From assembly GCA_964598995.1 (NCBI GenBank), contig CAZRDR010000021.1, forward strand, positions 537 through 64,536: DNA of 64,000 nucleotides. Reading direction: 5' to 3'. Of the stretch, positions 1 through 59,118 are shown one piece after another. Within the stretch, counting starts at the first letter, position 1. Each line of letters begins with the position of its first letter. Both the position numbers and the translations under genes were made by a program. A model generated the notes under the pieces. It searched no databases. It was not told where the DNA came from and saw only the letters and a list, made by a program, of their open reading frames with translations. This DNA comes from an uncultured Gammaproteobacteria bacterium (GTDB taxonomy: Bacteria > Patescibacteriota > Microgenomatia > Levybacterales > UBA12049).

Positions 1-890
1 ATAGTTTTGTAACGGAGTTCTGAAGGAGTCTTACCAGAAAAACTTGATAGAGTTAATTTCTGAACCAACTGTTCCTTACCAGTTCCAGCCTCACCAACGA
101 GTACGACATTATTATTTTCAAGCTTTGCCAGGCTTTCAATTAACTTTTCGTACTCCTTCTCTCTTCCGACAATTGAGACGTCCTTCTCAGTCAAGCTATT
201 GGTGAAATTGCGGGTATATTTCTTTGTCTCAAGCGTCCAGCCATTAACGAGTACTTCACCGATCCCTCCGCCATTCCCTTCGATATGGAACTTACGGAGT
301 TCTTCCTCATACGGGAACTGCAGCCTCGTCCAAACTAAAATCTGCATGATGTCCTCAGGCTTTAGTTTTTTAGTAAACAACAACTTTGATTGGTCTTCCT
401 CAAGTAGTAAGTAAGCAGCTACGAGGTCCATCGTCGTAACTCTCTTACCCCCTACCTCTTTTGCTAATTTATAAGCAAACTCTGGCAATATAGCATTTTT
501 TAGATCAGATTTAGGCAGATCCTCTCTGGTGATATTTGCCCGTTCCAAGAAGAATCGGACTTGTGGATACTGAAGAAGATCGTGGATGACATGAGACGCC
601 TGCGTGTAATGATAGACAGACGCTAAAGCTGGGAATGTCATGACCTGGAGTGCCTCATGTTCGGTAACCTCGTTTACCGTCTGTTTGGATTGAATCCGCG
701 AAATTTTATACCGATAAAAAATCTCACTCATGATGATCACATTGAGAAGAAATAAAGGAATCGTCGGGGTAGAGTCCATCATCCACGCAAGCAGACTCAC
801 GAGCAGTATCAGGAGTACTAAGGTAATGCGTACAGCTTTACTGAGTGGATTTCGATAAAAACGATAAAGCGTAATAAAATGATAGTCCAT
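1..890 (-). CDS. Partial (C-terminus beyond window) membrane-anchored Clp-N / AAA+ ATPase paralog; start ATG at 890; degenerate Walker A GEAGTGKE
   Basis: Manual translation of the minus strand from the ATG at 890 gives MDYHFITLYRFYRNPLSKAVRITLVLLILLVSLLAWMM..., with an N-terminal hydrophobic anchor. This is followed by a Clp_N-like repeat region and then VGREKEYEKLIESLAKLENNNVVLVGEAGTGKEQLVQKL. That stretch aligns to the ClpA/B/C D1 motif IGRDEEIRRxIQVLxRRTKNNPVLIGEPGVGKT. No stop codon occurs before position 1. It is absent from the ORF track because it is truncated by the window edge. Confidence 0.5.
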   Translation of the reverse strand, partial: MDYHFITLYRFYRNPLSKAVRITLVLLILLVSLLAWMMDSTPTIPLFLLNVIIMSEIFYRYKISRIQSKQTVNEVTEHEALQVMTFPALASVYHYTQASHVIHDLLQYPQVRFFLERANITREDLPKSDLKNAILPEFAYKLAKEVGGKRVTTMDLVAAYLLLEEDQSKLLFTKKLKPEDIMQILVWTRLQFPYEEELRKFHIEGNGGGIGEVLVNGWTLETKKYTRNFTNSLTEKDVSIVGREKEYEKLIESLAKLENNNVVLVGEAGTGKEQLVQKLTLSSFSGKTPSELRYKT

Positions 891-901
891 AGTTAGTTAC
901 C

Positions 902-1231
902 TCACCAGATCAACAGCGCAACGGTAAATATCGGAAAGACGATAAACCCAATGATAAGCGCTGCTTCAAGCAAAAAAATCGGAACGAACAAGATGAGTGA
1001 GGTTAGAATCACCGCACTTTTAACAACGATCCCCATGCCGATTGAAAATCCGACGAGGCCTTTACGATATTCATTTTTGATCGGTTGAAAGAATGTCCGA
1101 AGTAAGAGTGATACTGAGAAAAATTGGAAAAAAGCTTTATTTACCTCGTGGAAGTATTTGAGAAGACGAATTGGTGCTTCGCCAAACCAAAAGGCAAGAA
1201 AATAAAACGGTAAGAACAGATAGGCAGCCAT
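902..1231 (-). CDS. Small polytopic membrane protein (109 aa, 3-4 predicted TM helices), hypothetical
   Basis: The ORF-track protein is dominated by hydrophobic stretches (LFLPFYFLAFWF, LVGFSIGMGIVV, ILTSLILFVPIFLLEAALIIGFIVFPIF). It sits between the two Clp-family genes on the same strand with short gaps. Confidence 0.4.
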   Translation of the reverse strand: MAAYLFLPFYFLAFWFGEAPIRLLKYFHEVNKAFFQFFSVSLLLRTFFQPIKNEYRKGLVGFSIGMGIVVKSAVILTSLILFVPIFLLEAALIIGFIVFPIFTVALLIW

Positions 1232-1294: not shown

Positions 1295-4015
1295 TTAATT
1301 AGTAGATGTCGAGGAAGCACTCATGCCATTGGCCGAAGTTGTAACGCCATTTGCCCCATTAGTCGTCTCTTCCTTTAAGAAAGGTGGGTTAAAATCAGGA
1401 GTTGCGAACTGTTGTGCCTGTGGCGCATCAGGCATCGCGTGAGCGTCCCCTGTATCACTTGGAGCTGGAGTCTGAGGCTGTGGCTGATCAGGCTGGGTCA
1501 AAACGTCTTGTTGCGTAGTTTCATCGGCCTTTGCTTCACCTTGAAGAGGTGTGCCACTCCCCTTACCAAAACTGAAAGCTGATTTGGACTCATCGTAGTC
1601 GACCACGATCGTGTCACCTGGAACGAACTGTTTACTGATCAGGAGCATCGCAACTTGGTTCTCGATTGCTGTCTGGATCAGTCGGCGCAGTGGCCTTGCG
1701 CCATAGACTGGATCATAGCCTTCTTGAGCAAGCTGGGCAAGCGCTTTATCTGTTGCTTGCATATGATAGCCTTGTTCTTCAAGTAACTTTGCCGTCTTAG
1801 CAATACCTAGCTTGGCAATCTGGGCCATATCCTGTCGGCGTAATGGCTTAAAGATCACGACGTCGTCAAAGCGATTGAGGAGTTCTGGTCTGAAGAACTT
1901 GCGTAATTCATTAGTTACCATCCCAGCTAGCTCTGAGAATTTCTGCGCGAACTGAGCATCAGTCTGCGCAGCAGCCTGTGCTTCAGCTCCATCACTTAAC
2001 TGCTGCTGGATGAGTGCACTTCCGATATTTGAGGTACAGATAACAATCGTATTCTTAAAAGAGATCGTGTTCCCTTTATTATCTGTTAGGCGTCCATCCT
2101 CAAGTAACTGGAGAAGGATATTAAAGACATCAGGGTGAGCTTTTTCTACCTCATCCAAAAGCACAATCGAGTATGGCTTAGCTCTGACTGCCTCAGTTAA
2201 TTGTCCGCCTTCTTCATAGCCGACATAGCCTGGAGGTGCTCCAATAAGCTTAGCCACTTCGTGCTTTTCCATATATTCCCTCATATCAAGACGGATGAGT
2301 GCGTCATCACGCCCAAAGAGGATCTCGGCTAAGGTTTTAGCTAATTCTGTTTTACCTACTCCAGTCGGCCCAAGAAAAACAAAAGAGGCAATTGGGCGGT
2401 TAGCTGGCGCTAAACCAATACGGCCGCGACGAACTGCTTCAGAGACTGCAGCGACAGCTTCTTGCTGGTCGATAAGACGATCATGGATACGATCTTCAAG
2501 CTTAAGTAACTTAGCACTCTCATCTTCGGTTAACTTCGTGATAGGAATACCAGTCCAATTACTGACGACTTTCTCGATATCAGATTTAACGACAGTACTT
2601 CCTGTTGCTTGAGAGGTAACCGGAGATTCAGCCATGCCATTATTTTCAAGCTTTTTCTCTCCCTCTTTGGTATCTGCTTTCGTCTCAACTGCCTTCGTCG
2701 GACCAATCCGTCCTAACTTAACATCAGCTGCAGCCTCATCGATCAGATCGACTGCTTTATCAGGGAGGTACCGCTCACCAATATATTTTTTAGACAATTT
2801 AACCGCTGCGACTAAGGTGTCATCTGGGATAGTGACGCTATGAAACTTCTCATATTTCGGACGAAGCACCTTTAGCATCTCAACAGCTGCTTCCTCAGAC
2901 GGCTCGTCACAAAGGATAGGCTGAAAACGTCTTTCAAAAGCTTTATCTTTCTCAAAATACTTTCGGTATTCAGCAGTAGTCGTAGTACCAATGATTTGCA
3001 TCTGACCACGAGCCAGATACGGCTTTACGATATTTGAAGCGTCTAACGCGCCATCGGTATCACCTGCACCGATAAGTGTATGAATCTCATCGATGAAGAG
3101 AATTATTTTGCCCTCACTGGCAGTTGTTTCATTAATAATACTCTTGAGACGCTCCTCAAACTCCCCTCGATGACTCGCACCTGCGACCATTGATGCCAGA
3201 TCTAATTGATAGATCTTTTTGTCTTTCAAATCCGCTGGAACAGAGCCGCTGACGATCGCCTCAGCTAACCCTTCAACGATCGCTGTCTTTCCGACACCAG
3301 CTTCACCGATGATGATGGGATTATTTTTAGTACGGCGTAACAAGACATGGATAAGGCGATCGACTTCTTTTTCTCGTCCAGCAATCGGATCTAATTTGCC
3401 CTGGCGTGCTTGTTCGGTAAGATCAATTGCATAGGTCTCAAGAACAGACTTTTTACCCGTAGTATAGGTCGGATTTTTAGATAGCTTAGTTTGGATTTCT
3501 TCTTTCTTAACCCCTTTCTCATTAAGCATCTTTGAAACATCTGAATTGCTATTACAGAACGCAACTAATAGATCTTCAGGAGAAATGAAGGAAACACCGC
3601 GAGCCTGGACATCTCGGTATGCCTGTTCGAAAAGCTGAGTCGTTGCGTCACTCAAAGTCGCCTGCCCACTGTAGGTCCCTAAGACTTCTTTACCTTGTAC
3701 TTCTTTAGCAAGTGCAGCTACATCGACAGAGAAGCCACTAAGTAACTTATAAATATCCTCATCATACAAAAGACCAAGCAATAACTGCTCTGGATCGATT
3801 TTCTCATGGCGAACGCGTTTCGCTTCATCTTGCGCGTGGTGAAGGACCTGAGTCGTGCGTGCATCTAAGTGAGAGAGTGCTGAGATGTTTTGGCGAGAAA
3901 CAGGATCCATGCGTGAAGTAGGCATGCTTGATGCTTGAGGCTGATCTTGAGGAGGAACCTGCTGTCCTACAGGCGCAACAGGATCCTTATGCTGATTAAA
4001 AAGATTTCCTAACAT
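1295..4015 (-). CDS. clpC: ClpC/ClpB-family two-ring AAA+ chaperone with short middle domain, Q/P-rich N- and C-terminal low-complexity extensions
   Basis: It has a Clp_N-like N-domain, the D1 Walker [16 protein letters not shown] and the D2 Walker [18 protein letters not shown]. Only about 50 aa separate LIDEAAADV from WTGIPITKL, so the M-domain is short (ClpC/ClpA-like, not the long ClpB coiled coil). I could find no [ILV]GF ClpP-docking tripeptide in D2. The C-terminal roughly 110 aa are Q/P/T/A-rich low complexity. Confidence 0.85.
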
Positions 4016-4087: not shown

Positions 4088-7000
4088 CTACTCAGGCTTA
4101 TCTAATGGTATTGCTACTGCTTGCTCTTCAGTTTGAGATTTAGCGCAATTAGCTACATTCACGAGCGACTCTGGTTCGTTCGCTCCAGATAGCGTCGCGA
4201 GAGCCATCACAGCTGCTTCTTTTTTCGCTTTGAGATAACCAAGTACTTCATCATGGGAGAAGCCACCCAAAAGTAAGAAAGGTAGGATATCACCAACTAA
4301 CTTCATACCTTGCGTGATATTCTCTTCGGATTCTGATGTGAGGAGATTAATCACATTTTCTGTCTCTGACTTCTCCTCAGTAACCCATTCTTCTCTACTT
4401 TGTTCTTTATTTTCGCGAGTTTTTGGTACATCACCCTTGATAAATCGTTCATAAAACATCTTCTTGATCGCCTCATAGTCATCAAGGGATACTTTCTGCA
4501 CGTTATTCTGCTTAGGTAGTCGAGCCGGCTTAACTTTATGCTGTTGTTTTGCAAGCCTATCGTTAACAAGTTTTACCAGAACCTTAGCAAATGGATCGCC
4601 TTTCTTTTCGAGTTGTTGATAGATAGTGGTTATCTCCTGTTGAGTAGTACTTGGAATAGAGATAAATTGCTGCATAATCTGCGCAGCATTTTCGTTTTGT
4701 GTGCGGTTTTCAAGTAATAACACTCGAGCTTTATTTGCTGCAACAGGAGTGATCTCCCCATGTGCTAATGAAAGCAATGTCGATGAAACATTGTCAGAAG
4801 TTTTTTCTCTTTCGAGCGTTTCTTTAAGCGTAGAATAAACTTCTCTCAACTTGTCATCAGTGATCTGCAGAGGATTATCGAGATACTGTAGAAACTTCAT
4901 AGTACTCTGAGTCTGCTCAGCTGAAACTTTATCCATTACAGTCATGATTGTTGCAGCTGATTCATTGCCTGACTGACGTGACTTTACGAGTTCTTCTCGA
5001 GCAGAACGGAATTCTTGTTGAAGCGGGAGGGCAATAAGAGATGGATCAAGTACTCCCTGAAGTGTGTTCATAATTGCTGTTGGGGTATCCTCAATCAGTG
5101 GAGCCTCTGAACTTGCGGTCAAAGCCATAAGTGTTGCTGCGGATTGGTCACCTTGTGCTGTTCTCGTCTGGAGTGATTTCTTCAGGGAATTGAGTTGTGC
5201 TGACTCATCTGCAGTCAGACTCAAGTTTTGTAGAGACTTACTGAGTACCCGTGCGAGATCTCTCATACTCCCTTGCTGGCTAGACTGAGTCTCAAATGAG
5301 GCAACATCTCTAAGCGTAGGGACTGTGAGCTTAATCTGTGGAGCCGTCTGTAACGTTTGGTCAGCTTCAGATACAGTTACCTCTGCTGCCTGCATCGTCT
5401 GAGTGTTTGCAGTCTTTTGGGCAGTATTCTTCACTGAAAGAAGCGTTTGTTCATCTGACTGCTGAAGTGTCGTGAGGACACTCTTTCCAGCTTCTAATTT
5501 AGCTTTAAGATATCCAGTTATCTCCTCTTTAGAAAAGCCGCCTAAGAGAAGGAATGGTAAGATTTCACCAACTCTATCCATTCCCATTTGGACTTGGTTT
5601 GGATCACTTGAGGCTAGGAGATTAATCGTATCGCTGATATCAGTCGTCTCTTTCGTAATCCAGGCTTCACGAGTGGTATTAGCTGGTGGTTCTGCGCTCG
5701 AATAGTTATCAGACCAAAGTTTCTTTACACTTTCATAATCCTCAAGTGAAACTTGCTGAATTCGATTCTTGGTCGGAATAGTAGCTGAAGTCACACTCGC
5801 TGCTGCTGGATGAAGTTGTTTAGTAAAGGCCCTCAGGAGTGACGTCGCTAACGTATTATTAGTAGACTTTGCCTCGATAAGTTTTTTGTAGAGAGACTCA
5901 AGCCCTGCCTGTGTCTCTGGTTGAACTGAAGCCACTTCATCTTTAAGATAAATTGCTAACTCATCACCATGAGAAGCATTAGTATTGATGACTGCAATCA
6001 AGTTAACAATACTCTCCTGAGTGAGTGGAGCACGTAAAGTCTTGAGTACTAGTTGGGCTGTCGTATTTCTATCTTCACTTGCTTGGGCTACTCGCTCAAC
6101 CAACTTCTTATAATGCATTTGCTCTGATGCTGTAGATAAATTCTCAGGATTACTTAACCTCGTTAACAATGTCTCTGCGTCAGTCTGATAATTAAGCTTT
6201 AGCTTGGTAGCTTCGTTAGTAATCTCAACAGCGAGTGGGTCATTGGATCTCGTTAGTACCGCAAGCTTGTCATGCAGCTCCTGGAAATACTGAACGGTAT
6301 TTTTTTCTCCAGCAATTTCGGGAGTGACAAGAGCAAGCATGGTTGTTGCAAATTGACTACGTTCACTTTCAGACAGCTTACTTGGCAACGTCTCAAGCAA
6401 TTGTGTTGCACTCAGGATCATCGTAGCCAGCGGGTTGTTTTCACTACTTTCCTTGATAACTTCATCGCGAATCTGAACCATTCTTTCTCGCTCTTTAGTA
6501 TCGGTTATCCTTTCAGGATGAGACAGATGCTCAAGGACATTCTTAATACTGGTGATCTGTGATGACTCTTTCGTTTCTGACTTCGTCTCAAAGCGAGCAA
6601 TATCGGTAAGCTTAGGTACAGACAACTCAGTCTTTTTCAGAAGAGTTACATCAAATGGTGCATTTGGAGCAGCTGTCTGATTGACTACCGTATTCGTTTC
6701 ATCATTATTTGTCGTATTCGTAGTTGAGTAATTGTAGTTATTTACCACTGTCGTTGGCGCGCTAATTGAAGTATCTTTCTCATCGATTTCAGCTGAAGCT
6801 GCCAAGTGTTTTGTCTCAGTCTTTACTGCCTGCTTCGTTTCAACAAGAGTATCTTCTTCATCTTGCTGAGTTGTCGTATCCTCAAGAACGTTCTTGCCTG
6901 CTTCTATTTTAGCTTTGAGATAGGCGATCATCTCAGTCTGTGAGAACCCGCCGATGAGTAGGAATGGTAAGATATCTGAGACCTGCTGCATTCCTTGTTC

Positions 7001-9385
7001 AACTTCTTGGGGATTACTCGATGAGAGTAAATTCACTGTCTCTTGGATACTTGCGATGTCACTCTGGATCCATTCTTTACGACCTGATTGGCCGACAGGG
7101 ACTTCAACATTTTTATAATTTTCTTTCCACATCTTCTTAACCGCTTCATAATCCTCCAGGGACACCTGCTGGATACGGTTAACCTGAGGCAGAGTACCTG
7201 ATTTCAATTTGGCTGTGGCAGAGACAGGAGCAACTGCAGCTTTTTGTGATGTCAGCGTCTTTAACAGGAGCGTTGCGAGTGGATCGCCTTTTTTACTTGC
7301 TTCCTCAAGTGTCGTATGAAGTTGCTCCATGTCTTTCTCTGTTGTCTTATCAGAGGTAGAGACTGTCTTGAGAAGCTCTGCAGCTAATGGATTACCCTGT
7401 GCTTTGGCCTCAAGTAGCTGATCCTGGATCTTTCTAACCTGTTCAGGACTTGAAGCGTTATCGAGATTTTGGGCAAGCATCGTTGCTAACGGATTACCTG
7501 ATTTACTCGCAGCCATAATCTTCTCGCGAAGTGTCGTGTAGTTAGCCTTTTCACTTGTATTGGTTACTTTCTCTGGGTGCGAAATTCCCTGTAGAAGCTG
7601 CTGGAGGTTCGTTACTTGGTTAGTCGTGTAGTTATTAACATTATTAAGAATAGTCGTCGCGAACTGATTGCCTTCCTTTGCGGCTTTACCCAACTCTTGT
7701 TTGATCTCAACTATTTTCTGCTGGTCACGCTTAGAGGTGATGAGTGTCGGCTGCGCTAAGTGCTGTACGAGACTCTGCATCTGCTGGGAGACTGAAGAAG
7801 CCGATGACTGCGATGAGTAACTCGTATAGGTCGTGGCTGCATTAAGTATGTTCGTCGCGACAGAATTGCCTTTCTGACTCTCAGTCACTAACTTTTCTTT
7901 GATAACGCGCAGACGATCTCGCTCGGTGCTTGAGGCGACTGTGGTTGGATTCGCGATATTGATAAGAGTCTGCTTCATGCGCTCAATCTCACGCTGTGAG
8001 TTAACGTCATGACTCAGACGAGTCGACTCATAGCGAGCGATATCACGCATCGTCGGAATTGAAAGATTGGTCAGACGTGAAATTTCTGTCTGGTTATTGC
8101 GAGTTACGAGCGTTGGGCGTTCTACCGTTCGGCTGGCTGTAGTAGGAATATCTCTCGCAAGTCCCGTCGTCTTAGGGATTTCAAACCGCTTCGCAAATGG
8201 AAGAGCCCTTGCCAGTCCAGTCGTAGCTGGTGGAGGAGTTCCTGGAGGGAGCGGCGTAAGAGGAGCTACAGGTCTATTATTAAGCATCGTATAGACCTGT
8301 TTGATCAGAGGGTTATTCTGATAATTAAAGGCCATCATGTAGTCTAAAAAGATCTGCAGCAGAATAAATGGCAAAATAATCACCGTCCAGAGCATCAGGA
8401 GCGCAACTAGGTAGAGAGCGAAAGTATCAGGCAAATTCACACTATTATTAAGACCGATGTTCTGACCTGGGCCACCGAGTAAGATGTTAATAGCGGTCGG
8501 GTAGACAGCATCTGCTGGATTATTTACTCCTGAAAAATTAAAAATGAGCGGCAACCCTGAATGCCAGAGGCGAACCAGACCAGATAAAAATACAGCAAAG
8601 AGAGGCGCATAAAGTAACCATCTGAAGAATTCCCCCACCCAAATTTTGGCAGTATTTCGCAGTGGGTAAAACAAGAGAAGTAGTGGGAAGATGGGCGAGA
8701 CGATGATCAAGAACCACAGGATGATTTTACGGAAAATCAGGAGGATGACCATCGCATAATAGGTAAAGGCTGTAAGTTTTACTAGCAGTAATGAGATAAA
8801 GGCAGACTCATCAAAAGATTGGCCGAAAACCCGCAGTCCCTGAAACGACTGGTAATTAAAGCCAACATATAAAAGATCTTTTTGGGAAATAATTTGTCCG
8901 GCCTGGTTACGCAGGAAAAATCCTTGGAAGATATCAATAATTTGATAGAGAAACTGCACCAGCGAGAATGAAAAAGTCACAAGTAATACCACGAGGAAAA
9001 ATCGCGGCAGGAAGCGTTTGGCAGATAGACTTCTGCCTCGCGTTATGATCAAGATAAATGCTGTAACTAAAATAACGAAGAGAAAAAGTGCATAGACTAT
9101 TCGCTGAATCGTCTGCCAGAGTGGAACAAGCGGATTGTTACTATACGCACTATCTGATGCCCATTTATAGTCTCTTAGCGTCCAGTCCAGTAACTGACCA
9201 GAACGAGCAGCATTTTTACCAATAGTCGTAACCTCAGGGTCTTTAATCCATGAGCCCTCTTGAGGCAAATCTTGAGCTTGGACAGTATCGACCGCTGTAG
9301 TGTCAGCAGCGTGAATAATAGCTGTCGATAGCGGGCTGAGTAAAATCCCTAATACCAATAAAATCGAAACTAAATATTTTTTCAT
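4088..9385 (-). CDS. Giant (1765 aa) secreted/polytopic membrane protein: signal peptide + ~6 TM VirB6/TrbL-like N-terminal domain (aa ~1-375) followed by a ~1400-aa hydrophilic region built from three long tandem repeats
   Basis: A single 5.3-kb ORF. The N-terminus is MKKYLVSILLVLGILLSPLSTAIIHA, a signal peptide, followed by multiple long hydrophobic helices (IVYALFLFVILVTAFILII, FLVVLLVTFSFSLVQFLYQII, FISLLLVKLTAFTYYAMVILLIF, ILWFLIIVSPIFPLLLLFYPL, FALYLVALLMLWTVIILPFILLQIF). Next comes a Pro-rich linker (PVAPLTPLPPGTPPPATTG). The rest is three repeats, each beginning (I/V)P(T/K)(M/L)(R/T)D(I/V)A(R/S)(Y/F)E and ending RIQQVSLEDYEAVKKMW...ILPFLL(I/L)GGFS...YLKAK(I/L)EAGK. Its start codon overlaps the stop of the upstream pilin-like gene (TAATG). 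Confidence 0.8.
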   Translation of the reverse strand: MKKYLVSILLVLGILLSPLSTAIIHAADTTAVDTVQAQDLPQEGSWIKDPEVTTIGKNAARSGQLLDWTLRDYKWASDSAYSNNPLVPLWQTIQRIVYALFLFVILVTAFILIITRGRSLSAKRFLPRFFLVVLLVTFSFSLVQFLYQIIDIFQGFFLRNQAGQIISQKDLLYVGFNYQSFQGLRVFGQSFDESAFISLLLVKLTAFTYYAMVILLIFRKIILWFLIIVSPIFPLLLLFYPLRNTAKIWVGEFFRWLLYAPLFAVFLSGLVRLWHSGLPLIFNFSGVNNPADAVYPTAINILLGGPGQNIGLNNSVNLPDTFALYLVALLMLWTVIILPFILLQIFLDYMMAFNYQNNPLIKQVYTMLNNRPVAPLTPLPPGTPPPATTGLARALPFAKRFEIPKTTGLARDIPTTASRTVERPTLVTRNNQTEISRLTNLSIPTMRDIARYESTRLSHDVNSQREIERMKQTLINIANPTTVASSTERDRLRVIKEKLVTESQKGNSVATNILNAATTYTSYSSQSSASSVSQQMQSLVQHLAQPTLITSKRDQQKIVEIKQELGKAAKEGNQFATTILNNVNNYTTNQVTNLQQLLQGISHPEKVTNTSEKANYTTLREKIMAASKSGNPLATMLAQNLDNASSPEQVRKIQDQLLEAKAQGNPLAAELLKTVSTSDKTTEKDMEQLHTTLEEASKKGDPLATLLLKTLTSQKAAVAPVSATAKLKSGTLPQVNRIQQVSLEDYEAVKKMWKENYKNVEVPVGQSGRKEWIQSDIASIQETVNLLSSSNPQEVEQGMQQVSDILPFLLIGGFSQTEMIAYLKAKIEAGKNVLEDTTTQQDEEDTLVETKQAVKTETKHLAASAEIDEKDTSISAPTTVVNNYNYSTTNTTNNDETNTVVNQTAAPNAPFDVTLLKKTELSVPKLTDIARFETKSETKESSQITSIKNVLEHLSHPERITDTKERERMVQIRDEVIKESSENNPLATMILSATQLLETLPSKLSESERSQFATTMLALVTPEIAGEKNTVQYFQELHDKLAVLTRSNDPLAVEITNEATKLKLNYQTDAETLLTRLSNPENLSTASEQMHYKKLVERVAQASEDRNTTAQLVLKTLRAPLTQESIVNLIAVINTNASHGDELAIYLKDEVASVQPETQAGLESLYKKLIEAKSTNNTLATSLLRAFTKQLHPAAASVTSATIPTKNRIQQVSLEDYESVKKLWSDNYSSAEPPANTTREAWITKETTDISDTINLLASSDPNQVQMGMDRVGEILPFLLLGGFSKEEITGYLKAKLEAGKSVLTTLQQSDEQTLLSVKNTAQKTANTQTMQAAEVTVSEADQTLQTAPQIKLTVPTLRDVASFETQSSQQGSMRDLARVLSKSLQNLSLTADESAQLNSLKKSLQTRTAQGDQSAATLMALTASSEAPLIEDTPTAIMNTLQGVLDPSLIALPLQQEFRSAREELVKSRQSGNESAATIMTVMDKVSAEQTQSTMKFLQYLDNPLQITDDKLREVYSTLKETLEREKTSDNVSSTLLSLAHGEITPVAANKARVLLLENRTQNENAAQIMQQFISIPSTTQQEITTIYQQLEKKGDPFAKVLVKLVNDRLAKQQHKVKPARLPKQNNVQKVSLDDYEAIKKMFYERFIKGDVPKTRENKEQSREEWVTEEKSETENVINLLTSESEENITQGMKLVGDILPFLLLGGFSHDEVLGYLKAKKEAAVMALATLSGANEPESLVNVANCAKSQTEEQAVAIPLDKPE

Positions 9386-9798
9386 TAATGACTAACTCCT
9401 GGCAGCTGCAAAATGTCTACCAAGAAGACTTCGATGAATATAAAGCCGAAAATCGCGAGGAGCAGTCCTAAAACTGCATAAAAAATATAACTTTTACCGA
9501 CATTTACTTTTTCTGGTTTACCTTCTGACGTAAGGAGTGTATAGCCGCCGATAATGATAAAGACTAAGGCAACACCGCCGATAAGTCCCAGCCCAATACC
9601 ATAAAAACTCGTGACGAACTGGATAGGATCTGTAGGCAAACACCCAACTTCAGTCATCGCCTGATCTGAGGGACAACTCGGAGTTGGAGTAGGGACATCT
9701 GCAGCATAGGTAAGCTGAGAGGTAAGTACTAATAAGCAGAATGTTACAAGCACAAGGCTTGTGACCATTCGAATGATGTGGGCAGACATCTTTTTCAT
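9385..9798 (-). CDS. VirB2/TrbC-like pilin candidate (137 aa): long signal peptide, two Cys, two hydrophobic helices separated by a short charged loop
   Basis: MKKMSAHIIRMVTSLVLVTFCLLVLTSQLTYA|ADVP looks like a signal peptide with an A-x-A-type cleavage site. The mature part has hydrophobic helix 1 FYGIGLGLIGGVALVFIIIGGYTLL, a loop TSEGKPEKVNVGKS, and helix 2 YIFYAVLGLLLAIFGFIFIEVFLV. This is the classic T4SS VirB2/TrbC pilin topology. It is translationally coupled to the giant VirB6-like gene. Confidence 0.5.
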   Translation of the reverse strand: MKKMSAHIIRMVTSLVLVTFCLLVLTSQLTYAADVPTPTPSCPSDQAMTEVGCLPTDPIQFVTSFYGIGLGLIGGVALVFIIIGGYTLLTSEGKPEKVNVGKSYIFYAVLGLLLAIFGFIFIEVFLVDILQLPGVSH

Positions 9799-9804
9799 AG
9801 CAGG

Positions 9805-9822
9805 AAAAACCCGAAAACGGGC
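9805..9822 (-). terminator. Rho-independent terminator downstream of dnaJ-like gene (minus strand reads GCCCGTTTTCGGGTTTTT)
   Basis: A GC stem CCCG/CGGG with a 4-nt loop, followed by T5 on the minus strand. It lies about 60 nt after the dnaJ stop at 9884 and immediately upstream of the pilin start. Confidence 0.5.
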
Positions 9823-9883
9823 TATACTCCTGTTAAAAGTATATGGAGTTTATAGATAAATTACAATTGAAGAAGATTAGTTC

Positions 9884-10756
9884 TTAAAACCACTTTTTCT
9901 TCGAGGATTCGGTATCGAACTGTTCAAGTAATTCTTTTTGCTTTTTACTCACGGTTTTTGGGATCACGACTTTTATTTTTACATAATGGTCACCCATGCC
10001 TGAGCCGCGGAGTCGCTGGATGCCTTTGCCGCGTAAGCGAATCAAGCTTTCAGGCTGCGTACCGGAAGGAATTTTAATCTTTACTGGACCTTGGACAGTC
10101 TCGACACTAATCTCACTGCCGAGGACTGCCTGTGGGAAGGTAATCTCCTCCTCAGAGATAACATCTGAACCCTCACGCTGAAATTTTTTATCTGATGCGA
10201 CGTCAAACACGATGTCATAAGTATCAAACCTCATCCTCGTTCCAGAATCAACTCCAGCTGGAACTTTGATCTTTTGTTTTTTACCATCGATGGTGACCTC
10301 TTTTTCTGTTCCGCTCACAGCCTCAGTAAATGAAAGCGAAAGAGAGTAGACCGGCCGACGTGATCGTGACCCAAAAGGTGAAGCACCGCCAAAAAACTGC
10401 TCGAAAATTTCAAAAGGATCTGAAAATCCGCCGAAGTCAAAGCCCTGGCCATTAGTCGTGTACGTGTACTGTCCGCCAAAACCACCAAAAGGCCCCTGAC
10501 CACCAAATGGTCCGCCAGCCCCAGCGCCTCCTTGCTCAAATGCTGCAGCTCCGAACTGGTCATACGTCTGACGCTTCTGTGGATCAGACAAGACCTCATA
10601 GGCTTTAGTAATTTCTTTGAACTTCTCTTCGCCTTCTTTAGTCTTATTACGATCAGGATGATACTGAAGCGCTAACTTACGATAGGATTTCTTAATCTCA
10701 TCCTGTGTTGCCGACTTAGTTACACCTAATAATGAATAATAATCTTGATTTGCCAT
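9884..10756 (-). CDS. dnaJ: DnaJ-class co-chaperone, type II / CbpA-like (J-domain + G/F-rich region + C-terminal substrate-binding domains, no CxxCxGxG zinc finger)
   Basis: The N-terminal [32 protein letters not shown] contains the HPD motif. A long Gly/Phe-rich linker follows. The four Cys-rich zinc-finger repeats are absent. It is the last gene of the hrcA-grpE-dnaK operon. Confidence 0.8.
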
Positions 10757-10757
10757 A

Positions 10758-11525
10758 TTATTTTTTAGCTCTTTTACTTAACTGAGTATATCGATCAAAT
10801 GCACGTGGACCGATGACAGTATGAGCAGTGTTTAACCCTTCAAACCTTCCATTTGGGTAGCCAACTGTTACTTTTGTTTCACGCTTAGTAAGAGCGTCTC
10901 TAAGATCATTATTATACCATGTCCTGCCTCCACCTAAGGTATAAAAGTGAGCATCAGATGAACCCACTGCACCACCTAACTTATCTCCGTATGAACTAAG
11001 ATTTGCAGAATAATAAGCGAGCGCTTGGTCGTTATTGCCGTTAAAACGTGGACTGAATTCAAGCCCCGCGTTATAGACCTCAAATCCATCAAAATACACA
11101 TAAGGATTTTTGCTATTTATGACTAGCTGAATACCCGTCTCTCCTATACCCTTAACAAGAACGGCGAATGGATGAACTGCTATTGCCAAACCATCCTGAT
11201 CGTGAATTGCTTCAAGTGTCCAATCGATATCTTTACCTTGAGGAATATCTGATTTGAGGTAAAGCCCAAGGACATGACCACCACTGGTAGAGATCTCTTC
11301 GCCTGGAATCAGTTCAGTTTCAGGAGAATAGACTTGCGCATAACCTTTCCCAAGAATTCCAGGTAAAAGAAAATTGTGATCTGTTACTCCAACAGCGCAG
11401 ATACCAAGTTCCCGAGCCACTTCGGTGATCTCATCGAGATTCATTTTCCCATCAGAAAATACCCCGTGGGTGTGAAGGTCTGCACATTTAGTTACTGTGT
11501 CTACTGATGAATAAATTTCTCTCAT
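10758..11525 (-). CDS. PHP-domain (polymerase/histidinol-phosphatase-like) metal-dependent phosphoesterase
   Basis: The N-terminal [38 protein letters not shown] matches the PHP H-x-H and D-H metal-binding motifs. It sits between dnaK and dnaJ with 1-2 nt gaps. Confidence 0.65.
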
Positions 11526-11590
11526 AAGGAATTAATCATAAAAAAGCCCCGTCACGAACGAGGCATAGTTTTATAGTTATCTATCTATTA

Positions 11591-13486
11591 TTACTCAACG
11601 ACTTCGCCTTCAACAGGCTCGTCTTTGTTTTTATCAGAATCCTTCTTCTCCTCTGATGTTCCTGTATTTTCAGATGAAGCATCGGTCGAAGTATTAGCAG
11701 CATTCATCGCCTCACCAATTTTCATAAGAGTATCTGACAGCTCTTTGGTCTTTGCTTCAATTTCATCTTTACTGCCAGATTCCAAAACATCTTTGAGAGC
11801 TTTAATCTTGTCCTCAACTTCTTTCTTAGTATCCTCTTGTACTTTATCCCCAGCATCTTTGAGAGCTTTCTCGGCTGTAAAGATAAGTGAATCAGCTTGG
11901 TTACGTGCCTCGACCTGAGCTTTTTTCTCTTCATCTTCTTTTGCATGCATCTCGGCTTCTTTCGTCATGCGCTCGACTTCATCCTTAGACAGGCCAGTTG
12001 ACCCCTGGATCTTAATACTCTGTTCCTTACCACTTGCTTTATCCTTAGCTTTAACACTGAGGATTCCACTTGCATCGATATCGAAAGTGACTTCGACCTG
12101 AGGCATACCACGAGGTGCTGGTGGGATACCATCTAAGATAAATCGACCGAGTGACTTGTTATCTGCAGCCATAGGACGCTCTCCCTGGAGAACATTAATT
12201 TCAACTTGTGTCTGGTTATCAGCTGCTGTTGAGAAGACCTGTGACTTACTGGTCGGGATAGTCGTATTGCGTGAGATAAGAGGAGTTGATACGCCGCCTA
12301 GTGTCTCAAGACCAAGAGTTAATGGAGTAACGTCTAGAAGTAACACATCTTTGACGTCTCCTGAGAGAACGCCTCCCTGAACAGCCGCTCCGATTGCGAC
12401 GACTTCATCTGGGTTAACTGATTTGTTAGGCTCTTTACCAAAGAACTTAGATACCGTCTCGACAATCTTTGGCATGCGAGTCATTCCGCCAACGAGTACG
12501 ATTTCATCTATTGCTGACTTCTCAACACCCGCATCTTTGAGCGCTAACTCAACAGGCTTTAATGTCTTTTGGACGAGATCATCGACGAGCTGTTCTAATT
12601 TCGCACGAGTTAAGGTCATCGTGAGATGAAGTGGACCATTTTCACCTTGGGTAATAAATGGCTGATTGATTTGTGCTTCTTGAGAAGTTGAGAGCTCGAT
12701 CTTTGCTTTTTCTGCTGATTCTTTCAGACGCTGAAGAGCCTGGGCATCTTTACGAAGATCGATATTATTTTCTTTCTTAAACTCATCTGCGAGGTAATCG
12801 ATGATGACCTGGTCGAAGTCGTCTCCGCCGAGGTGAGTATCACCATTGGTTGATTTAACTTCATAGACGCCATCACCAAGCTCCAAAATTGAGATATCGA
12901 ATGTTCCGCCTCCAAGGTCATAGACTGCGATCGTATGTGCATTTTGCTTATCGAGTCCGTAGGCGAGTGCTGCAGCGGTAGGCTCATTAATAATTCGCTT
13001 TACATCAAGTCCAGCGATCTCTCCAGCTTGTTTGGTAGCTTGGCGCTGACTGTCGTCAAAGTAGGCGGGAACAGTAATAACTGCTTCAGTAACTTTTTCT
13101 CCTAAATATGCCTCTGCATCAGATTTGATTTTCTGGAGGATCATAGCAGATACTTCTTGAGGAGTGTAGGTCTTACCATCAACTTCAACTACAGCCATAT
13201 CATCACGGCCTGCTTTGACTGTATATGGCAGCCATTTCATATCACGCTGGACTGACTCGTCATGGAACTTCTTACCCATCAGACGTTTTACTGAAAAAAT
13301 CGTCTCTTTAGGCTTTAAGACCATCTGACGCTTGGCCACGTCCCCTACGACATGCGTCTTTGGATCAACAACTGATGGGATAACATTTCTTCCCTCAGCT
13401 GAGTGGATGACCTTTGGTGATCCACCCTCCATCACAGCCATAGCTGAATTTGTTGTACCTAAATCAATTCCAATTATTTTTGCCAT
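11591..13486 (-). CDS. dnaK: Hsp70 chaperone DnaK
   Basis: Hsp70 signatures [18 protein letters not shown] and [10 protein letters not shown] are present. It is 631 aa and lies in an operon with grpE and hrcA. Confidence 0.95.
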
Positions 13487-13487
13487 A

Positions 13488-13994
13488 TTAATTACTTTCT
13501 TTCTGACCGTTTCCTACGACGACTTGCGCCGCGCGTAAGAGTTTGTCATGCAGCAAGTATCCTGTGCGTACTTCCTGTATAACAACTCCATCCTTACCCG
13601 GACCGGTAGTCACGACTTCCATAGTTACTGGATCAAAATCCTTTCCAATAGTCTCGATCTTGGTTACTCCATCAGATTTTAATGTCTGAAGAAATTGATC
13701 GGTAACTATTTTTAAAGTTCTGTTCTCTTCGTGCTGTTGAGCAAGTATTAATGTATCCAAAATTGGTAAAAATCTCAACAGTAATTCCTTGTTACTTGAT
13801 TGAATTAGAACCAATCGTTCTTCCCGTACTCTTTTCTCAAGATTCTGATAATCTGCGATCGCTCTTAAGCGAGCATTCTCAGCAATCTGTAATTTCTCCT
13901 CGCACTCATCGTGACTCTGCTCTTCGCGTTCGACCTCATTTACTGTCTCTCCAATCTCTTCTTCTGGTTTTGTCGTTTTCTTATCCATTACCAT
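13488..13994 (-). CDS. grpE: Nucleotide exchange factor GrpE
   Basis: It is 168 aa with a coiled-coil N-terminus and a GrpE-like C-terminus. Its position between hrcA and dnaK is canonical. Confidence 0.8.
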
Positions 13995-14728
13995 CCTTTT
14001 GCAACTGTCTCGATGAGGTCACCAAAGTAACGAACAGTCGGTACTACCATTGTATAGTTAAGTCGCACTGGACCAATTACACCGATCTGTCCTGCTCCAT
14101 GCATTGGCGTCTCGTACTGGGTATAGACAAAACTATACGGACCATGCAGTCTCTGACCTAAGTCTTCACCCATCAGAACATGAATGTCTTCGCTGTCAGA
14201 ACTAAATCTGCTACAGAGATCGAAGAAATAATCTTCCTCATCAAGTGTCGCTAAGAGCGTCTTGGTGATAACGATATCATAAAATTCAGGCATTTCTAAG
14301 ATATTTGAATAGCATGAGATGAAGACATCTCCTTCACTAGTTGTCGCGATAGCGAGTGTCCTTGTCTTATTTGCTAACGAGCGGGTTGCTTCCTTTAAGA
14401 AGCGCTGCATCTTTTCTCGGTAATCCCAAACTTTTTCTTTAAGCGCTACTTCCTCAACAGTTGATAGCTCTTTTTCCTTCATCAGCTGAGTTACATAGAA
14501 CTTCATACCGATAGGAGTAGGAACACGTCCAGCTGAAGAGTGAGGCTTTTTAAGATAGCCAAACTCAGAGAGTCTGACCATTTCATTTCGAATAGTCGCA
14601 GGAGAAGCACTAAGATTGTATTTCTTCTCAAGCGTCTCCGAACCTACCGGTTCAGCCGTATTGATGTATTCCTCAATAATAGCTTTAAGAATTTCAATCT
14701 GTCGTTGGGTTAGATTGTGCATATGCAT
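13988..14728 (-). CDS. hrcA: Heat-inducible transcription repressor HrcA
   Basis: It has an N-terminal winged-helix region (LTQRQIEILKAIIEEYINTAEPVGSETL) and HrcA length. It is the first gene of the grpE-dnaK operon, with a CIRCE-like operator just upstream. Confidence 0.85.
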   Translation of the reverse strand: MHMHNLTQRQIEILKAIIEEYINTAEPVGSETLEKKYNLSASPATIRNEMVRLSEFGYLKKPHSSAGRVPTPIGMKFYVTQLMKEKELSTVEEVALKEKVWDYREKMQRFLKEATRSLANKTRTLAIATTSEGDVFISCYSNILEMPEFYDIVITKTLLATLDEEDYFFDLCSRFSSDSEDIHVLMGEDLGQRLHGPYSFVYTQYETPMHGAGQIGVIGPVRLNYTMVVPTVRYFGDLIETVAKGW

Positions 14729-14740
14729 TACCGGACAAGA

Positions 14741-14767
14741 TTAGCAGTATGATAACAAGAGTGCTAG
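14741..14767 (-). promoter_or_regulatory. CIRCE-like HrcA operator (TTAGCAgta-N9-GAGTGCTAg vs consensus TTAGCACTC-N9-GAGTGCTAA)
   Basis: An imperfect inverted repeat with a 9-nt spacer, 13-39 nt upstream of the hrcA start codon (14728). Confidence 0.6.
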
Positions 14768-14843
14768 GACTTGTCAAGCCCATAATTGGAATATTTTTGA
14801 AGCTAGTGTTGTAAGAGTACAGTAAATTCTTTATGCTTTATCT

Positions 14844-59062: not shown

Positions 59063-59118
59063 GAGATAAGTATAGCAAAATCTCTTTAAGATTAACAGTT
59101 AAGAGTTTTGAGTGCTAA

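What the first reader, a model, noticed from the sequence alone, without database searches (positions are those of the whole stretch)
4088..9798. Translationally coupled VirB2-like pilin + 1765-aa VirB6-like polytopic membrane protein: candidate surface/type-IV-secretion-like module without other T4SS genes in view
Nothing else in the window resembles the 137-aa protein or its partner. The 137-aa protein has the VirB2/TrbC pilin topology: a long signal peptide, two Cys, and two hydrophobic helices around a short charged loop. Its stop overlaps the start (TAATG) of a 5.3-kb gene. That gene's first 375 aa have a signal peptide plus about 6 TM helices, arranged like VirB6/TrbL. It is followed by a Pro-rich linker and 1400 aa of repeats.

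Long hydrophilic C-terminal extensions on VirB6 are known in Rickettsiales and in Gram-positive conjugation proteins. In an epibiotic CPR-like organism such a protein could be a host-contact or adhesion device. VirB4, VirD4 and VirB11 are not within this window, so this may be an orphan or distributed system, or a novel use of the pilin/VirB6 pair.
Basis: partly seen in the sequence, partly recalled or inferred. Interest (0 to 1): 0.75.

Follow-up and report, generated by a model that had tools for sequence, protein, structure and literature searches.

The report
VirB2/VirB6-like pair beside an Hsp100
Two overlapping genes in this ultra-small (CPR, Levybacteria-like) bacterium are real relatives of the pilin (VirB2) and pilus-platform (VirB6) parts of type IV secretion systems; unusually, they sit in the heat-shock gene cluster, and the platform protein shares a repeat motif with the neighbouring Clp-type ATPase.

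Summary
On the minus strand a 137-aa gene (9385-9798) ends in TAATG, overlapping the start of a 1765-aa gene (4088-9385).

The small protein has a signal peptide, a conserved Cys pair and a helix-loop-helix. It scores just below the Pfam T4SS_pilin cut-off, and many of its close homologues carry that family.

In 80 species-level relatives, mostly Levybacteria, the order is hrcA-grpE-dnaK-(dnaJ)-pilin-VirB6-like-Clp ATPase. No VirB4 or VirD4 lies within 10 kb of any copy.

The neighbouring Clp ATPase lacks both the ClpB middle domain and the ClpP-docking loop. In 20 species its C-terminus carries the same 45-aa repeat that fills the VirB6-like tail. This repeat sharing and the charge distribution both place the tail in the cytoplasm, which argues against the proposed surface adhesin.

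Verdict: this is a new variant of a known kind, an extended VirB6/VirB2 pair probably coupled to an Hsp100 ATPase. Whether it works without VirB4 is open.

The parts
9385..9798 (-). Gene for a 137-aa VirB2-type pilin-like protein: signal peptide (aa 1-33), beta-hairpin with Cys42/Cys53, helix 58-89, positively charged loop 90-102, helix 95-129
   Evidence: Pfam PF18895 E 5.6e-5 and NCBIfam Mbov_0395 pilin-like E 1.8e-6, both below cut-off. 313 homologues, about half of those listed with precomputed PF18895. AF2 pLDDT 86.
9838..9866 (-). Promoter-like site (TTGTAA-17-TATACT) in the dnaJ-pilin spacer. A small hairpin (9809-9822) lies between it and the ATG.
   Evidence: 9 of 12 matches, no better than chance in number; for the hairpin. 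Weak evidence only.
4088..9385 (-). Gene for the 1765-aa extended VirB6-like protein
8330..9130 (-). VirB6/TrbL-like polytopic domain (aa about 86-352). A signal peptide (aa 1-26) and an acidic extracytoplasmic segment (27-85) precede it.
8072..8263 (-). Pro-rich, K/R-rich low-confidence linker (aa 375-438)
   Evidence: pLDDT below 50 at 375-425. Net charge +4.7 over aa 353-440 across 67 homologues.
6782..8071 (-). Tail module 1 (aa 439-868): 'LSIPTMRDIA' motif, about five 45-aa 'GNPLA' helical repeat units, then a conserved 110-aa terminal helical domain ('VSLEDYE...ILPFLLIGGFS...YLKAKxEA')
5378..6631 (-). Tail module 2 (aa 919-1336)
   Evidence: 35% identical to module 1, E 3e-69; alignment
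4100..5332 (-). Tail module 3 (aa 1352-1762)
   Evidence: 29% identical to module 1, E 2e-49; alignment
1295..4015 (-). Adjacent 906-aa two-ring Clp/Hsp100 ATPase, the candidate partner. It has no ClpB-length middle domain, no ClpP-docking loop, and a PQ-rich C-terminal tail.
   Evidence: Follows the VirB6-like gene in 66 of 69 relatives, median gap 50 nt. Carries the tail repeat in 20 species, though not in this window's copy.
9884..14767 (-). Upstream chaperone genes that frame the pair: CIRCE-like operator and promoter (14741-14777), hrcA, grpE, dnaK, terminator (11546-11564), PHP-domain gene, dnaJ
   Evidence: Same order in most of the 80 loci.

Best explanation
The two genes encode a T4SS-derived envelope module: a VirB2-type pilin-like subunit and an 'extended' VirB6-type platform protein. 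In Levybacteria-like CPR bacteria it is a single-copy core module that evolves at housekeeping rates. It sits between dnaK/dnaJ and a non-canonical Hsp100 ATPase.

Proposed mechanism, with each step marked as shown or inferred:
1. Both proteins are Sec-exported or inserted. The pilin-like protein sits in the membrane with both ends outside and its basic loop inside (shown from sequence and model).
2. The VirB6-like domain oligomerises in the membrane, as a pentamer by analogy with R388 TrwI. It recruits the pilin-like subunits through its first transmembrane helix and lifts them to build a short pilus or conduit (inferred from homology only).
3. The 1400-aa tail is cytoplasmic. It consists of three copies of [45-aa helical repeats + a conserved 110-aa helical domain]. 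It acts as a docking or recruitment scaffold (location inferred from three independent lines of evidence; function inferred).
4. The scaffold is functionally tied to the neighbouring Clp/Hsp100 ATPase. That ATPase has lost the DnaK-coupling middle domain and the ClpP loop, and in some species carries the same repeats. It could therefore supply unfolding or extraction work at this platform, either alongside or instead of a VirB4 encoded elsewhere (inferred).
For: Identity:
- Sub-threshold but specific Pfam and NCBIfam hits.
- PF18895, PF04610 and PF19590 on homologues.
- The pilin model is a helix-loop-helix with a signal peptide.

Pairing: the pilin gene lies directly upstream in 71 of 77 loci, with gaps of a few nucleotides or an overlap.

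Core status: median identity to the window is 57% for the pilin and 63% for the VirB6 domain, against 62% for DnaJ, 69% for HrcA and 50% for GrpE.

Cytoplasmic tail:
- Family-wide net charges alternate as -2.9, +1.6, -2.3, +2.0, +2.0, -1.2, +4.7.
- A repeat-unit HMM run over 5293 ORFs hits only the 81 VirB6-like proteins and 20 Clp ATPases. Those Clp proteins have no signal peptide; in 17 of 20 no hydrophobic stretch passes the scan, and the other three have one marginal stretch each.
- Distant members carry HTH-like tail units.

Hsp100 link:
- A Clp gene lies within 3 genes downstream in 66 of 69 loci and is immediately adjacent in 60. The median gap is 50 nt.
- Adjacency is kept even where the upstream genes differ (L010, L012) or where dnaJ has moved.
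- The middle region is 30-60 aa in 59 of 60 copies, and the ClpP loop is absent in 55 of 56.

Known VirB2-VirB6 mechanism: PMC9259494, PMC12624023.
Against: - Neither window protein reaches its Pfam gathering score.
- A sequence profile of the family finds no VirB6 in the PDB.
- The pilin fold search is non-specific.
- In the R388 structure only two VirB6 helices are in the membrane and the rest is periplasmic (PMC9259494). By that precedent the tail could lie outside.
- The C-terminal part of F-plasmid TraG acts in mating-pair stabilisation (PMC4027160).
- A Pro-rich linker, T/S/Q-rich composition and copy-number variation (1-3 modules, 1-18 repeat units) are typical of surface proteins.
- This window's own Clp ATPase has no repeat.
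- The Clp gene could be adjacent only because both belong to a conserved heat-shock neighbourhood.
- More distant family members have neither a pilin nor a Clp gene next to them.
- No promoter, terminator or expression data show co-transcription.
Confidence: 0.5

Rival explanations
1. Ordinary dispersed T4SS parts. The pair is simply the VirB2 and VirB6 of the known Patescibacteria T4SS. It works with a VirB4/VirB3/(VirD4) set encoded elsewhere, typically near dnaA. The Clp ATPase is an unrelated chaperone neighbour.
For: - T4SS with VirB2-like pilins and VirB6 is widespread and essential in Patescibacteria. VirB6 was reported as 'scarce' in Microgenomatia, 'suggesting extreme sequence divergence', and VirB3 is often unlinked from virB4 there (PMC12102498).
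- One of the three genomes that could be checked and that carries the pair has VirB4.
- A distant family member lies beside yidC-jag, the origin-type region where virB4 usually lies.
- This window's own Clp has no shared repeat.
Against: - No VirB4 or VirD4 lies within 10 kb in any of 80 loci.
- VirB4 was detected in only 20 of 44 Levybacteria MAGs in one published table, against nearly all ABY1 genomes in the same table. Two of the three checkable genomes with the pair are VirB4-negative, though these MAGs are incomplete.
- The repeat shared with the Clp ATPase in 20 species is hard to explain by neighbourhood alone.
Confidence: 0.33
2. Surface fibre or adhesin. The VirB6-like domain anchors a 1400-aa extracellular helical repeat arm that contacts the host cell, and the pilin-like protein is a co-anchor.
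For: - The R388 structure places most of VirB6 outside the membrane (PMC9259494).
- The C-terminal part of F TraG acts in mating-pair stabilisation (PMC4027160).
- The protein has a Pro-rich linker, a T/S/N/Q-rich and Cys-free composition, and variable module number.
Against: - The positive-inside pattern holds across the family.
- The identical repeat type is found on a cytoplasmic AAA+ ATPase.
- Relatives have HTH-like tail units.
- The terminal domain is conserved at 55% identity, like a housekeeping protein, and is not diversifying.
Confidence: 0.12
3. An exapted membrane quality-control or export platform with no secretion or pilus role. The T4SS-derived proteins would now serve heat-shock proteostasis, for example by handing membrane proteins to the Hsp100s.
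For: - The pair is embedded between hrcA-grpE-dnaK/dnaJ and two Hsp100-type ATPases. The second of these is membrane-anchored.
- The pair evolves at housekeeping rates.
Against: - A strong terminator follows dnaK, and no CIRCE element lies in front of the pair.
- There is no precedent for such a role for VirB2 or VirB6.
- The conserved extracytoplasmic Cys pair and beta-hairpin of the pilin-like protein suggest an exposed, assembled structure.
Confidence: 0.05

Closest known systems
TrwI/VirB6 with TrwL/VirB2 of plasmid R388 (and A. tumefaciens VirB6/VirB2)
   Different: Sequence identity is about 10%. The window protein has a cleavable signal peptide and a 1400-aa tail. The organism is a monoderm. 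No VirB3, B4, B5, B8 or B10 genes are nearby. Oligomeric state was not tested.
T4SS of Patescibacteria (Southlakia epibionticum; survey of Quinonero-Coronel et al. 2025, PMC12102498)
   Same: It is from the same superphylum and uses PF18895-type VirB2-like pilins together with a VirB6 homologue.
   Different: There the genes cluster with virB4 near dnaA, and the pilins form variable arrays averaging 25% identity. Here a single, highly conserved pilin gene and the VirB6-like gene sit in the heat-shock cluster, and no ATPase of the VirB4 family is nearby. That survey reported VirB6 as scarce in Microgenomatia.
Extended VirB6 proteins (Rickettsiales VirB6 paralogues, F-plasmid TraG, 700-900-aa VirB6 of MPF_FA systems such as Tn916 Orf15)
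   Same: These also have a VirB6-like hydrophobic domain followed by a large hydrophilic domain whose function is unknown (PMC12857230).
   Different: The tail here has no detectable similarity to those extensions and matches no Pfam or PDB sequence. It is modular, with 1-3 copies, and shares its repeat with an Hsp100 ATPase.
ClpV of type VI secretion (own knowledge; analogy only)
   Same: ClpV is a ClpB-family AAA+ ATPase that does not dock ClpP, is encoded with a secretion apparatus and works on that apparatus's structural subunits.
   Different: ClpV is unrelated to the type IV machinery. No interaction has been shown here, and the N-domain specificity is unknown.
Mbov_0395-family pilin-like conjugal transfer proteins of Mycoplasma ICEs (NCBIfam NF045849)
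   Same: It is the best NCBIfam match of the 137-aa protein (E 1.8e-6, aa 60-126), and it also comes from wall-less or monoderm bacteria.
   Different: The score of 27.5 bits is below the cut-off of 40. Those proteins are ICE-borne, whereas this gene is chromosomal and core.

Membership tests
VirB2/TrbC-type T4SS pilin (Pfam PF18895 T4SS_pilin, PF04956 TrbC) | Profile match at or above the Pfam gathering score | tested here: not met
   PF18895 scores 23.6 bits against a cut-off of 26.6 (E 5.6e-5). PF04956 scores 12.4 against 27.9.
VirB2/TrbC-type T4SS pilin (Pfam PF18895 T4SS_pilin, PF04956 TrbC) | Close homologues belong to the family | tested here: met
   About half of the 120 listed homologues (49-79% identical) carry a precomputed PF18895 hit. 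Neighbour genes in L008-L014 are also marked PF18895.
VirB2/TrbC-type T4SS pilin (Pfam PF18895 T4SS_pilin, PF04956 TrbC) | Signal peptide plus two hydrophobic helices joined by a short basic loop | tested here: met
VirB2/TrbC-type T4SS pilin (Pfam PF18895 T4SS_pilin, PF04956 TrbC) | Structural similarity to solved conjugative pilins | tested here: inconclusive
   The best Foldseek E-value is 0.9. The A. pernix conjugative pilin 8dfu ranks 10th (TMt 0.61), among many generic helical hairpins.
VirB2/TrbC-type T4SS pilin (Pfam PF18895 T4SS_pilin, PF04956 TrbC) | Polymerises into a pilus | not testable with these tools
   Needs microscopy or multimer modelling.
VirB6/TrbL (Pfam PF04610) | Profile match at or above the Pfam gathering score | tested here: not met
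   24.0-24.6 bits against a cut-off of 25.9. 19 of 71 relatives match at E of 1e-3 or better, best 1.6e-7. Some relatives have precomputed PF04610 or PF19590 hits.
VirB6/TrbL (Pfam PF04610) | Polytopic protein with about five hydrophobic helices | tested here: met
VirB6/TrbL (Pfam PF04610) | Fold of a solved VirB6 | tested here: met
VirB6/TrbL (Pfam PF04610) | Encoded with virB4 and other T4SS genes | tested here: not met
   None is in the window. None is among the recurrent neighbours within 10 kb in 80 loci.
VirB6/TrbL (Pfam PF04610) | Pentameric assembly with a VirB2 recruitment site | not testable with these tools
   No multimer prediction is available.
Complete T4SS (Patescibacteria MPF_FATA-like) | VirB4 ATPase present in the same genome | not testable with these tools
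   Only 64 kb of the genome is available. In a published table, VirB4 is present in 1 of the 3 genomes that carry the pair and in 20 of 44 Levybacteria MAGs.
ClpB disaggregase (for the neighbouring gene 1295-4015) | Two AAA+ rings plus a middle coiled-coil domain of about 125 aa | tested here: not met
   Both rings are present. The middle region is 59 aa here and 30-60 aa in 59 of 60 relatives.
ClpA/ClpC unfoldase of ClpP (for the neighbouring gene) | (I/V/A)G(F/L) ClpP-docking loop | tested here: not met
   The loop is absent here and in 55 of 56 relatives. The alignment to S. aureus ClpC shows AGFGG replaced by an Ala/Gln-rich stretch.

The most novel reading that the evidence does not exclude
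Levybacteria may run a VirB4-independent machine derived from type IV secretion. In this reading the VirB6-like platform and its pilin-like subunit are energised by an Hsp100/Clp AAA+ unfoldase that has lost both its DnaK-coupling middle domain and its ClpP loop. The unfoldase would dock through the repeat and terminal-domain scaffold on the cytoplasmic tail of the VirB6-like protein. This would be a type IV counterpart of ClpV in type VI secretion.
Probability: 0.2. Interest if true: 0.85.

Novelty: new variant of a known kind. Interest (0 to 1): 0.6.

Why it matters
Type IV secretion genes are essential for the epibiotic life of the one CPR bacterium tested genetically. A recent survey found VirB6 'scarce' in Microgenomatia. 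This family supplies a structurally validated VirB6 homologue for Levybacteria and shows that it is not encoded where people have looked, next to virB4.

It also offers a concrete, testable clue to the unknown role of 'extended VirB6' tails. The tail here is a cytoplasmic scaffold whose repeat is shared with a neighbouring Hsp100 ATPase. If the coupling is real, it would be the first link between a T4SS platform and a Clp-family motor. It could also explain how lineages with patchy VirB4 still assemble the pilin.

Tried and rejected
- A profile of 71 family members searched against PDB sequences found no VirB6; only weak coiled-coil noise came back. The relationship shows up only at fold level.
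- Foldseek of the pilin model is dominated by generic helical hairpins, so it was not used as evidence.
- tblastn of the N-domain against 72,556 plasmids found no match, so nothing suggests a mobile-element origin.
- I tried to fetch R388 (BR000038) for a profile-sequence comparison with TrwI, but the record is not held. The TcpH paper (PMC2447013) is also not held.
- 'Split' versions of the large gene looked like natural TM-domain plus soluble-tail pairs, which would have settled the topology. Both are frameshifts: L007 381+911 aa at a G-run in a nanopore assembly, and L009 475+249 aa.
- A CIRCE operator in front of the pair or of the Clp gene was not found. The only good CIRCE-like site is upstream of hrcA, and a strong terminator follows dnaK. 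Direct HrcA control of the pair is therefore not supported.
- I considered that the B6 paralogues in L023 and L085 might mark the 'real' T4SS locus. Their neighbours are S8 proteases, LepA and tRNA synthetase genes.
- I considered that the 109-aa membrane protein plus 800-aa ATPase downstream might be VirB3 and VirB4. The ATPase is a Clp-type AAA+ (AAA_2, ClpB_D2-small), not of the VirB4 family.
- Weak hits of the tail to MA3 and to the AAC(6') acetyltransferase were dismissed as noise.
Full report
**1. Observation**

The minus strand carries a 137-aa ORF (9385-9798). Its stop overlaps the ATG of a 1765-aa ORF (4088-9385) in the sequence TAATG.

The surrounding genes on the same strand run in this order:
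- hrcA (13988-14728)
- grpE
- dnaK (11591-13486)
- a PHP-domain gene
- dnaJ (9884-10756)
- the pair under study
- a Clp/Hsp100 ATPase (1295-4015)
- a 109-aa membrane protein (902-1231)
- a second Clp-like gene that runs off the window

Identical copies of the 137-aa protein lie on 10 contigs from several samples, with the same neighbours. The genes are therefore real and not an assembly artefact. The rest of the window is housekeeping. It holds no VirB4, VirD4 or VirB11-like gene and no paralogue of either protein.

**2. The small protein**

Its features are:
- a signal peptide
- a beta-hairpin with two conserved cysteines (C42 nearly invariant, C53 invariant)
- two long hydrophobic helices (58-89 and 95-129) joined by a basic loop

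Pfam T4SS_pilin (PF18895) matches at E 5.6e-5 but below the gathering score. The NCBIfam Mycoplasma-ICE pilin-like family matches at 1.8e-6, also below its cut-off. Of 313 homologues, all from CPR Microgenomates and mostly Levybacteria, about half of those listed carry a precomputed PF18895 hit. The 97-aa database versions begin at 'MCP', so their start codons are probably mis-called. The fold search was not discriminating.

I accept that it is homologous to the VirB2-type pilins of Patescibacteria. Whether it polymerises is untested.

**3. The large protein: N-terminal domain**

After a signal peptide come hydrophobic helices at about 86-115, 122-157, 189-241, 240-276 and 319-352. Pfam TrbL/VirB6 (PF04610) matches aa 107-269 at 24 bits, against a cut-off of 25.9. 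Nineteen of 71 relatives match at E of 1e-3 or better.

This is a divergent but genuine VirB6-fold domain.

**4. The large protein: tail**

A Pro-rich, K/R-rich linker (375-438) is followed by three tandem modules at 439-868, 919-1336 and 1352-1762. They are 27-35% identical to one another. Each module has three parts:
- an 'LSIPTMRDIA' motif
- several 45-aa helical hairpin units ending in 'GNPLA'
- a very conserved 110-aa helical domain ('VSLEDYExVKKMW...ILPFLLLGGFS..E..YLKAKxEA')

The tail has no Pfam or PDB sequence match. Its structural neighbours are generic helical repeats and four-helix bundles such as FliS and HPt.

A search of 1.84 billion representative proteins with the three modules finds only 354 relatives. 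Every long relative that I inspected is again a VirB6-like N-domain followed by a tail with 2-4 terminal domains.

Among the window protein and 80 species-level relatives, lengths run from 678 to 2147 aa. The terminal domain was detected in 80 of these 81 proteins: once in 50, twice in 22 and three times in 8. Repeat units number 1-18 per protein. The window's protein is thus an expanded member of a family whose usual size is 700-830 aa.

**5. Gene neighbourhood**

A scan of one genome per species found 188 relatives, and the best 80 loci were analysed.
- The pilin-like gene lies directly upstream in 71 of 77 assessable loci, usually separated by a few nucleotides or overlapping.
- A Clp/Hsp100 gene follows within three genes in 66 of 69 loci and is immediately adjacent in 60. 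The median gap is 50 nt.

The usual order is hrcA-grpE-dnaK-(dnaJ)-pilin-VirB6-like-clp-...-109-aa membrane protein-second clp. The pilin-VirB6-Clp triad persists where the upstream genes differ and where dnaJ has moved downstream.

The other recurrent neighbours are S8 and M4 proteases, SdrD_B surface proteins and housekeeping genes. No VirB4 or VirD4 appears.

There are three kinds of exception:
- two VirB6-like paralogues without a pilin, followed by subtilases (L023, L085)
- loci with pilin arrays where the Clp gene lies upstream (L009, L090)
- more distant family members with neither neighbour, one of which lies beside yidC-jag

Median identity to the window is 57% for the pilin, 63% for the VirB6 domain and 55% for the terminal domain. 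This is in the range of DnaJ (62%), HrcA (69%) and GrpE (50%). The repeats are only 29% identical. The pair therefore behaves as a core gene set, unlike the variable pilin arrays (average 25% identity) described for other Patescibacteria (PMC12102498).

**6. The neighbouring ATPase and the shared repeat**

The 906-aa Clp protein matches ClpC and ClpB equally well (E about 1e-210). The stretch where ClpB has its middle domain of about 125 aa is 59 aa here, and 30-60 aa in 59 of 60 relatives. The ClpP-docking loop is missing in 55 of 56. It is therefore neither a canonical DnaK-coupled ClpB nor a ClpP partner.

In 19-20 of 63 species this ATPase has a C-terminal extension of 225-640 aa. The extension consists of 2-7 copies of the same 45-aa 'GNPLA' unit found in the VirB6-like tail. 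Per-domain E-values reach 4e-13 and whole-sequence E-values reach 6e-27.

A repeat-unit HMM run without filters over all 5293 ORFs of the loci hits only two groups: the 81 VirB6-like proteins and these 20 Clp proteins. These Clp proteins show no N-terminal signal-like segment. In 17 of 20 no hydrophobic stretch passes the scan, and the other three have one marginal stretch each. The window's own Clp has only a PQ-rich tail.

**7. Where is the tail?**

Three lines of evidence favour the cytoplasm.
- (i) Charge distribution. Across 61-71 homologues the net charge of successive hydrophilic segments is -2.9, +1.6, -2.3, +2.0, +2.0, -1.2 and +4.7. By the positive-inside rule this fits an N-terminus outside, five spans, a re-entrant segment (221-241) and a C-terminus inside. 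This is also the experimentally derived topology of A. tumefaciens VirB6 (own knowledge).
- (ii) The repeat is shared with a cytoplasmic AAA+ ATPase.
- (iii) In distant family members the repeats are replaced by HTH-like units that collect many weak Pfam HTH hits.

Against this, the R388 structure has only two VirB6 helices in the membrane and the bulk in the periplasm (PMC9259494). The C-terminal part of F TraG acts in mating-pair stabilisation (PMC4027160). The linker, composition and copy-number variation also look surface-like. I put the cytoplasmic location at about two in three.

**8. Relation to known systems**

The Patescibacteria T4SS, with VirB2-like pilins and VirB6, is known and is essential in Southlakia (PMC12102498, PMC12857230). 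Extended VirB6 proteins are known, but their tails are unexplained (PMC12857230).

The survey of 3,035 genomes looked around virB4 and reported VirB6 as scarce in Microgenomatia, 'suggesting extreme sequence divergence'. It does not mention ClpB or DnaK. Its Table S1 lists VirB4 in 20 of 44 Levybacteria MAGs on the page I read, against nearly all ABY1 genomes on that page. Of three genomes that carry our pair, one is VirB4-positive and two are negative. All are incomplete MAGs.

So the identity of the parts is known biology. The location, the tail architecture, the link to an Hsp100 and the possible independence from VirB4 are not.

**9. Regulation (weak evidence)**

The best promoter-like site of the region overlaps a CIRCE-like inverted repeat just upstream of hrcA. 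A strong terminator follows dnaK. A weak promoter-like site precedes the pilin gene, and no terminator-like site lies between the VirB6-like and Clp genes. The pair is thus probably not part of the hrcA-dnaK transcript. It may be co-transcribed with clp, but this has not been shown.

**10. Verdict**

The adhesin idea is disfavoured. The finding is a new variant of a known kind: a core, single-copy VirB2/extended-VirB6 module of Levybacteria. It is tied by conserved adjacency and a shared repeat to a non-canonical Hsp100 ATPase.

Confidence:
- about 0.85 for the homology
- about 0.65 for a cytoplasmic tail
- about 0.4-0.5 for functional coupling to the Clp ATPase
- about 0.2 for full VirB4 independence

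Noticed in passing
window 1-1231 (minus); full copy at L016:16889-19625: A second conserved pair lies downstream: a 109-aa polytopic membrane protein followed by a two-ring Clp-like AAA+ ATPase of about 800 aa. The ATPase has two predicted N-terminal transmembrane helices, so it looks like a membrane-anchored Hsp100. The pair is present in 43-49 of the 80 related loci. It is not of the VirB3/VirB4 type.
   Followed up: partly
window 1295-4015 (minus): The 'ClpB' of this organism lacks both the ClpB middle domain and the ClpP-docking loop, and ends in a PQ-rich low-complexity tail of about 95 aa. In relatives the protein ranges from about 800 to 1513 aa because of C-terminal extensions.
   Followed up: yes
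window 14741-14777: A CIRCE-like inverted repeat (TTAGCAGTA-N9-GAGTGCTAG) overlaps the best sigma-70-like promoter of the region (TTGACA-17-TATCAT with a TG extension), just upstream of hrcA. A strong intrinsic terminator follows dnaK at 11546-11564.
   Followed up: partly
window 59092-59118: A second CIRCE-like site (3 mismatches) lies just upstream of the start (59062) of a 589-aa ABC-transporter gene on the minus strand. Shuffled controls predict about 0.03 such matches per window.
   Followed up: no
window 10758-11525 (minus): A PHP-domain gene is inserted between dnaK and dnaJ. Only 2 of the 80 related loci have a homologue in this cluster.
   Followed up: no
window 9805-9831: A 5-bp GC-rich hairpin followed by a T-run (GCCCG-TTTT-CGGGT-TTTT) ends 7 nt before the pilin ATG. 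The only AGGAG lies 28 nt upstream. This could be a structured leader or an attenuator.
   Followed up: no
P0332, P0344, P0356, P0329, P0368; L096:3419-7318: Distant members of the same VirB6-like family (up to 3266 aa) keep the conserved terminal domain but fill the tail with tandem HTH-like units of about 35 aa ('IAxKTxVSxExVxxVL'). These units give many weak Pfam HTH hits. One such gene lies next to yidC-jag.
   Followed up: partly
L023:9941-18498, L085:10001-18615: VirB6-like paralogues without an adjacent pilin or Clp gene are followed by two S8 subtilase genes and lepA. S8 and M4 proteases and SdrD_B surface proteins also recur between the two Clp genes in many loci.
   Followed up: partly
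L027, L030, L033, L034, L037, L041, L042, L054 (minus strand, upstream of hrcA); L009:1-1191: Proteins of 400-470 aa containing a pilin-like (PF18895-like) segment are encoded divergently from hrcA in about a dozen relatives. No counterpart exists in this window.
   Followed up: no
L016, L017 and other loci: Many of the closest genomes are deposited under the title 'uncultured Gammaproteobacteria bacterium', although their gene content and closest relatives are Levybacteria (CPR). The titles are evidently placeholders.
   Followed up: no
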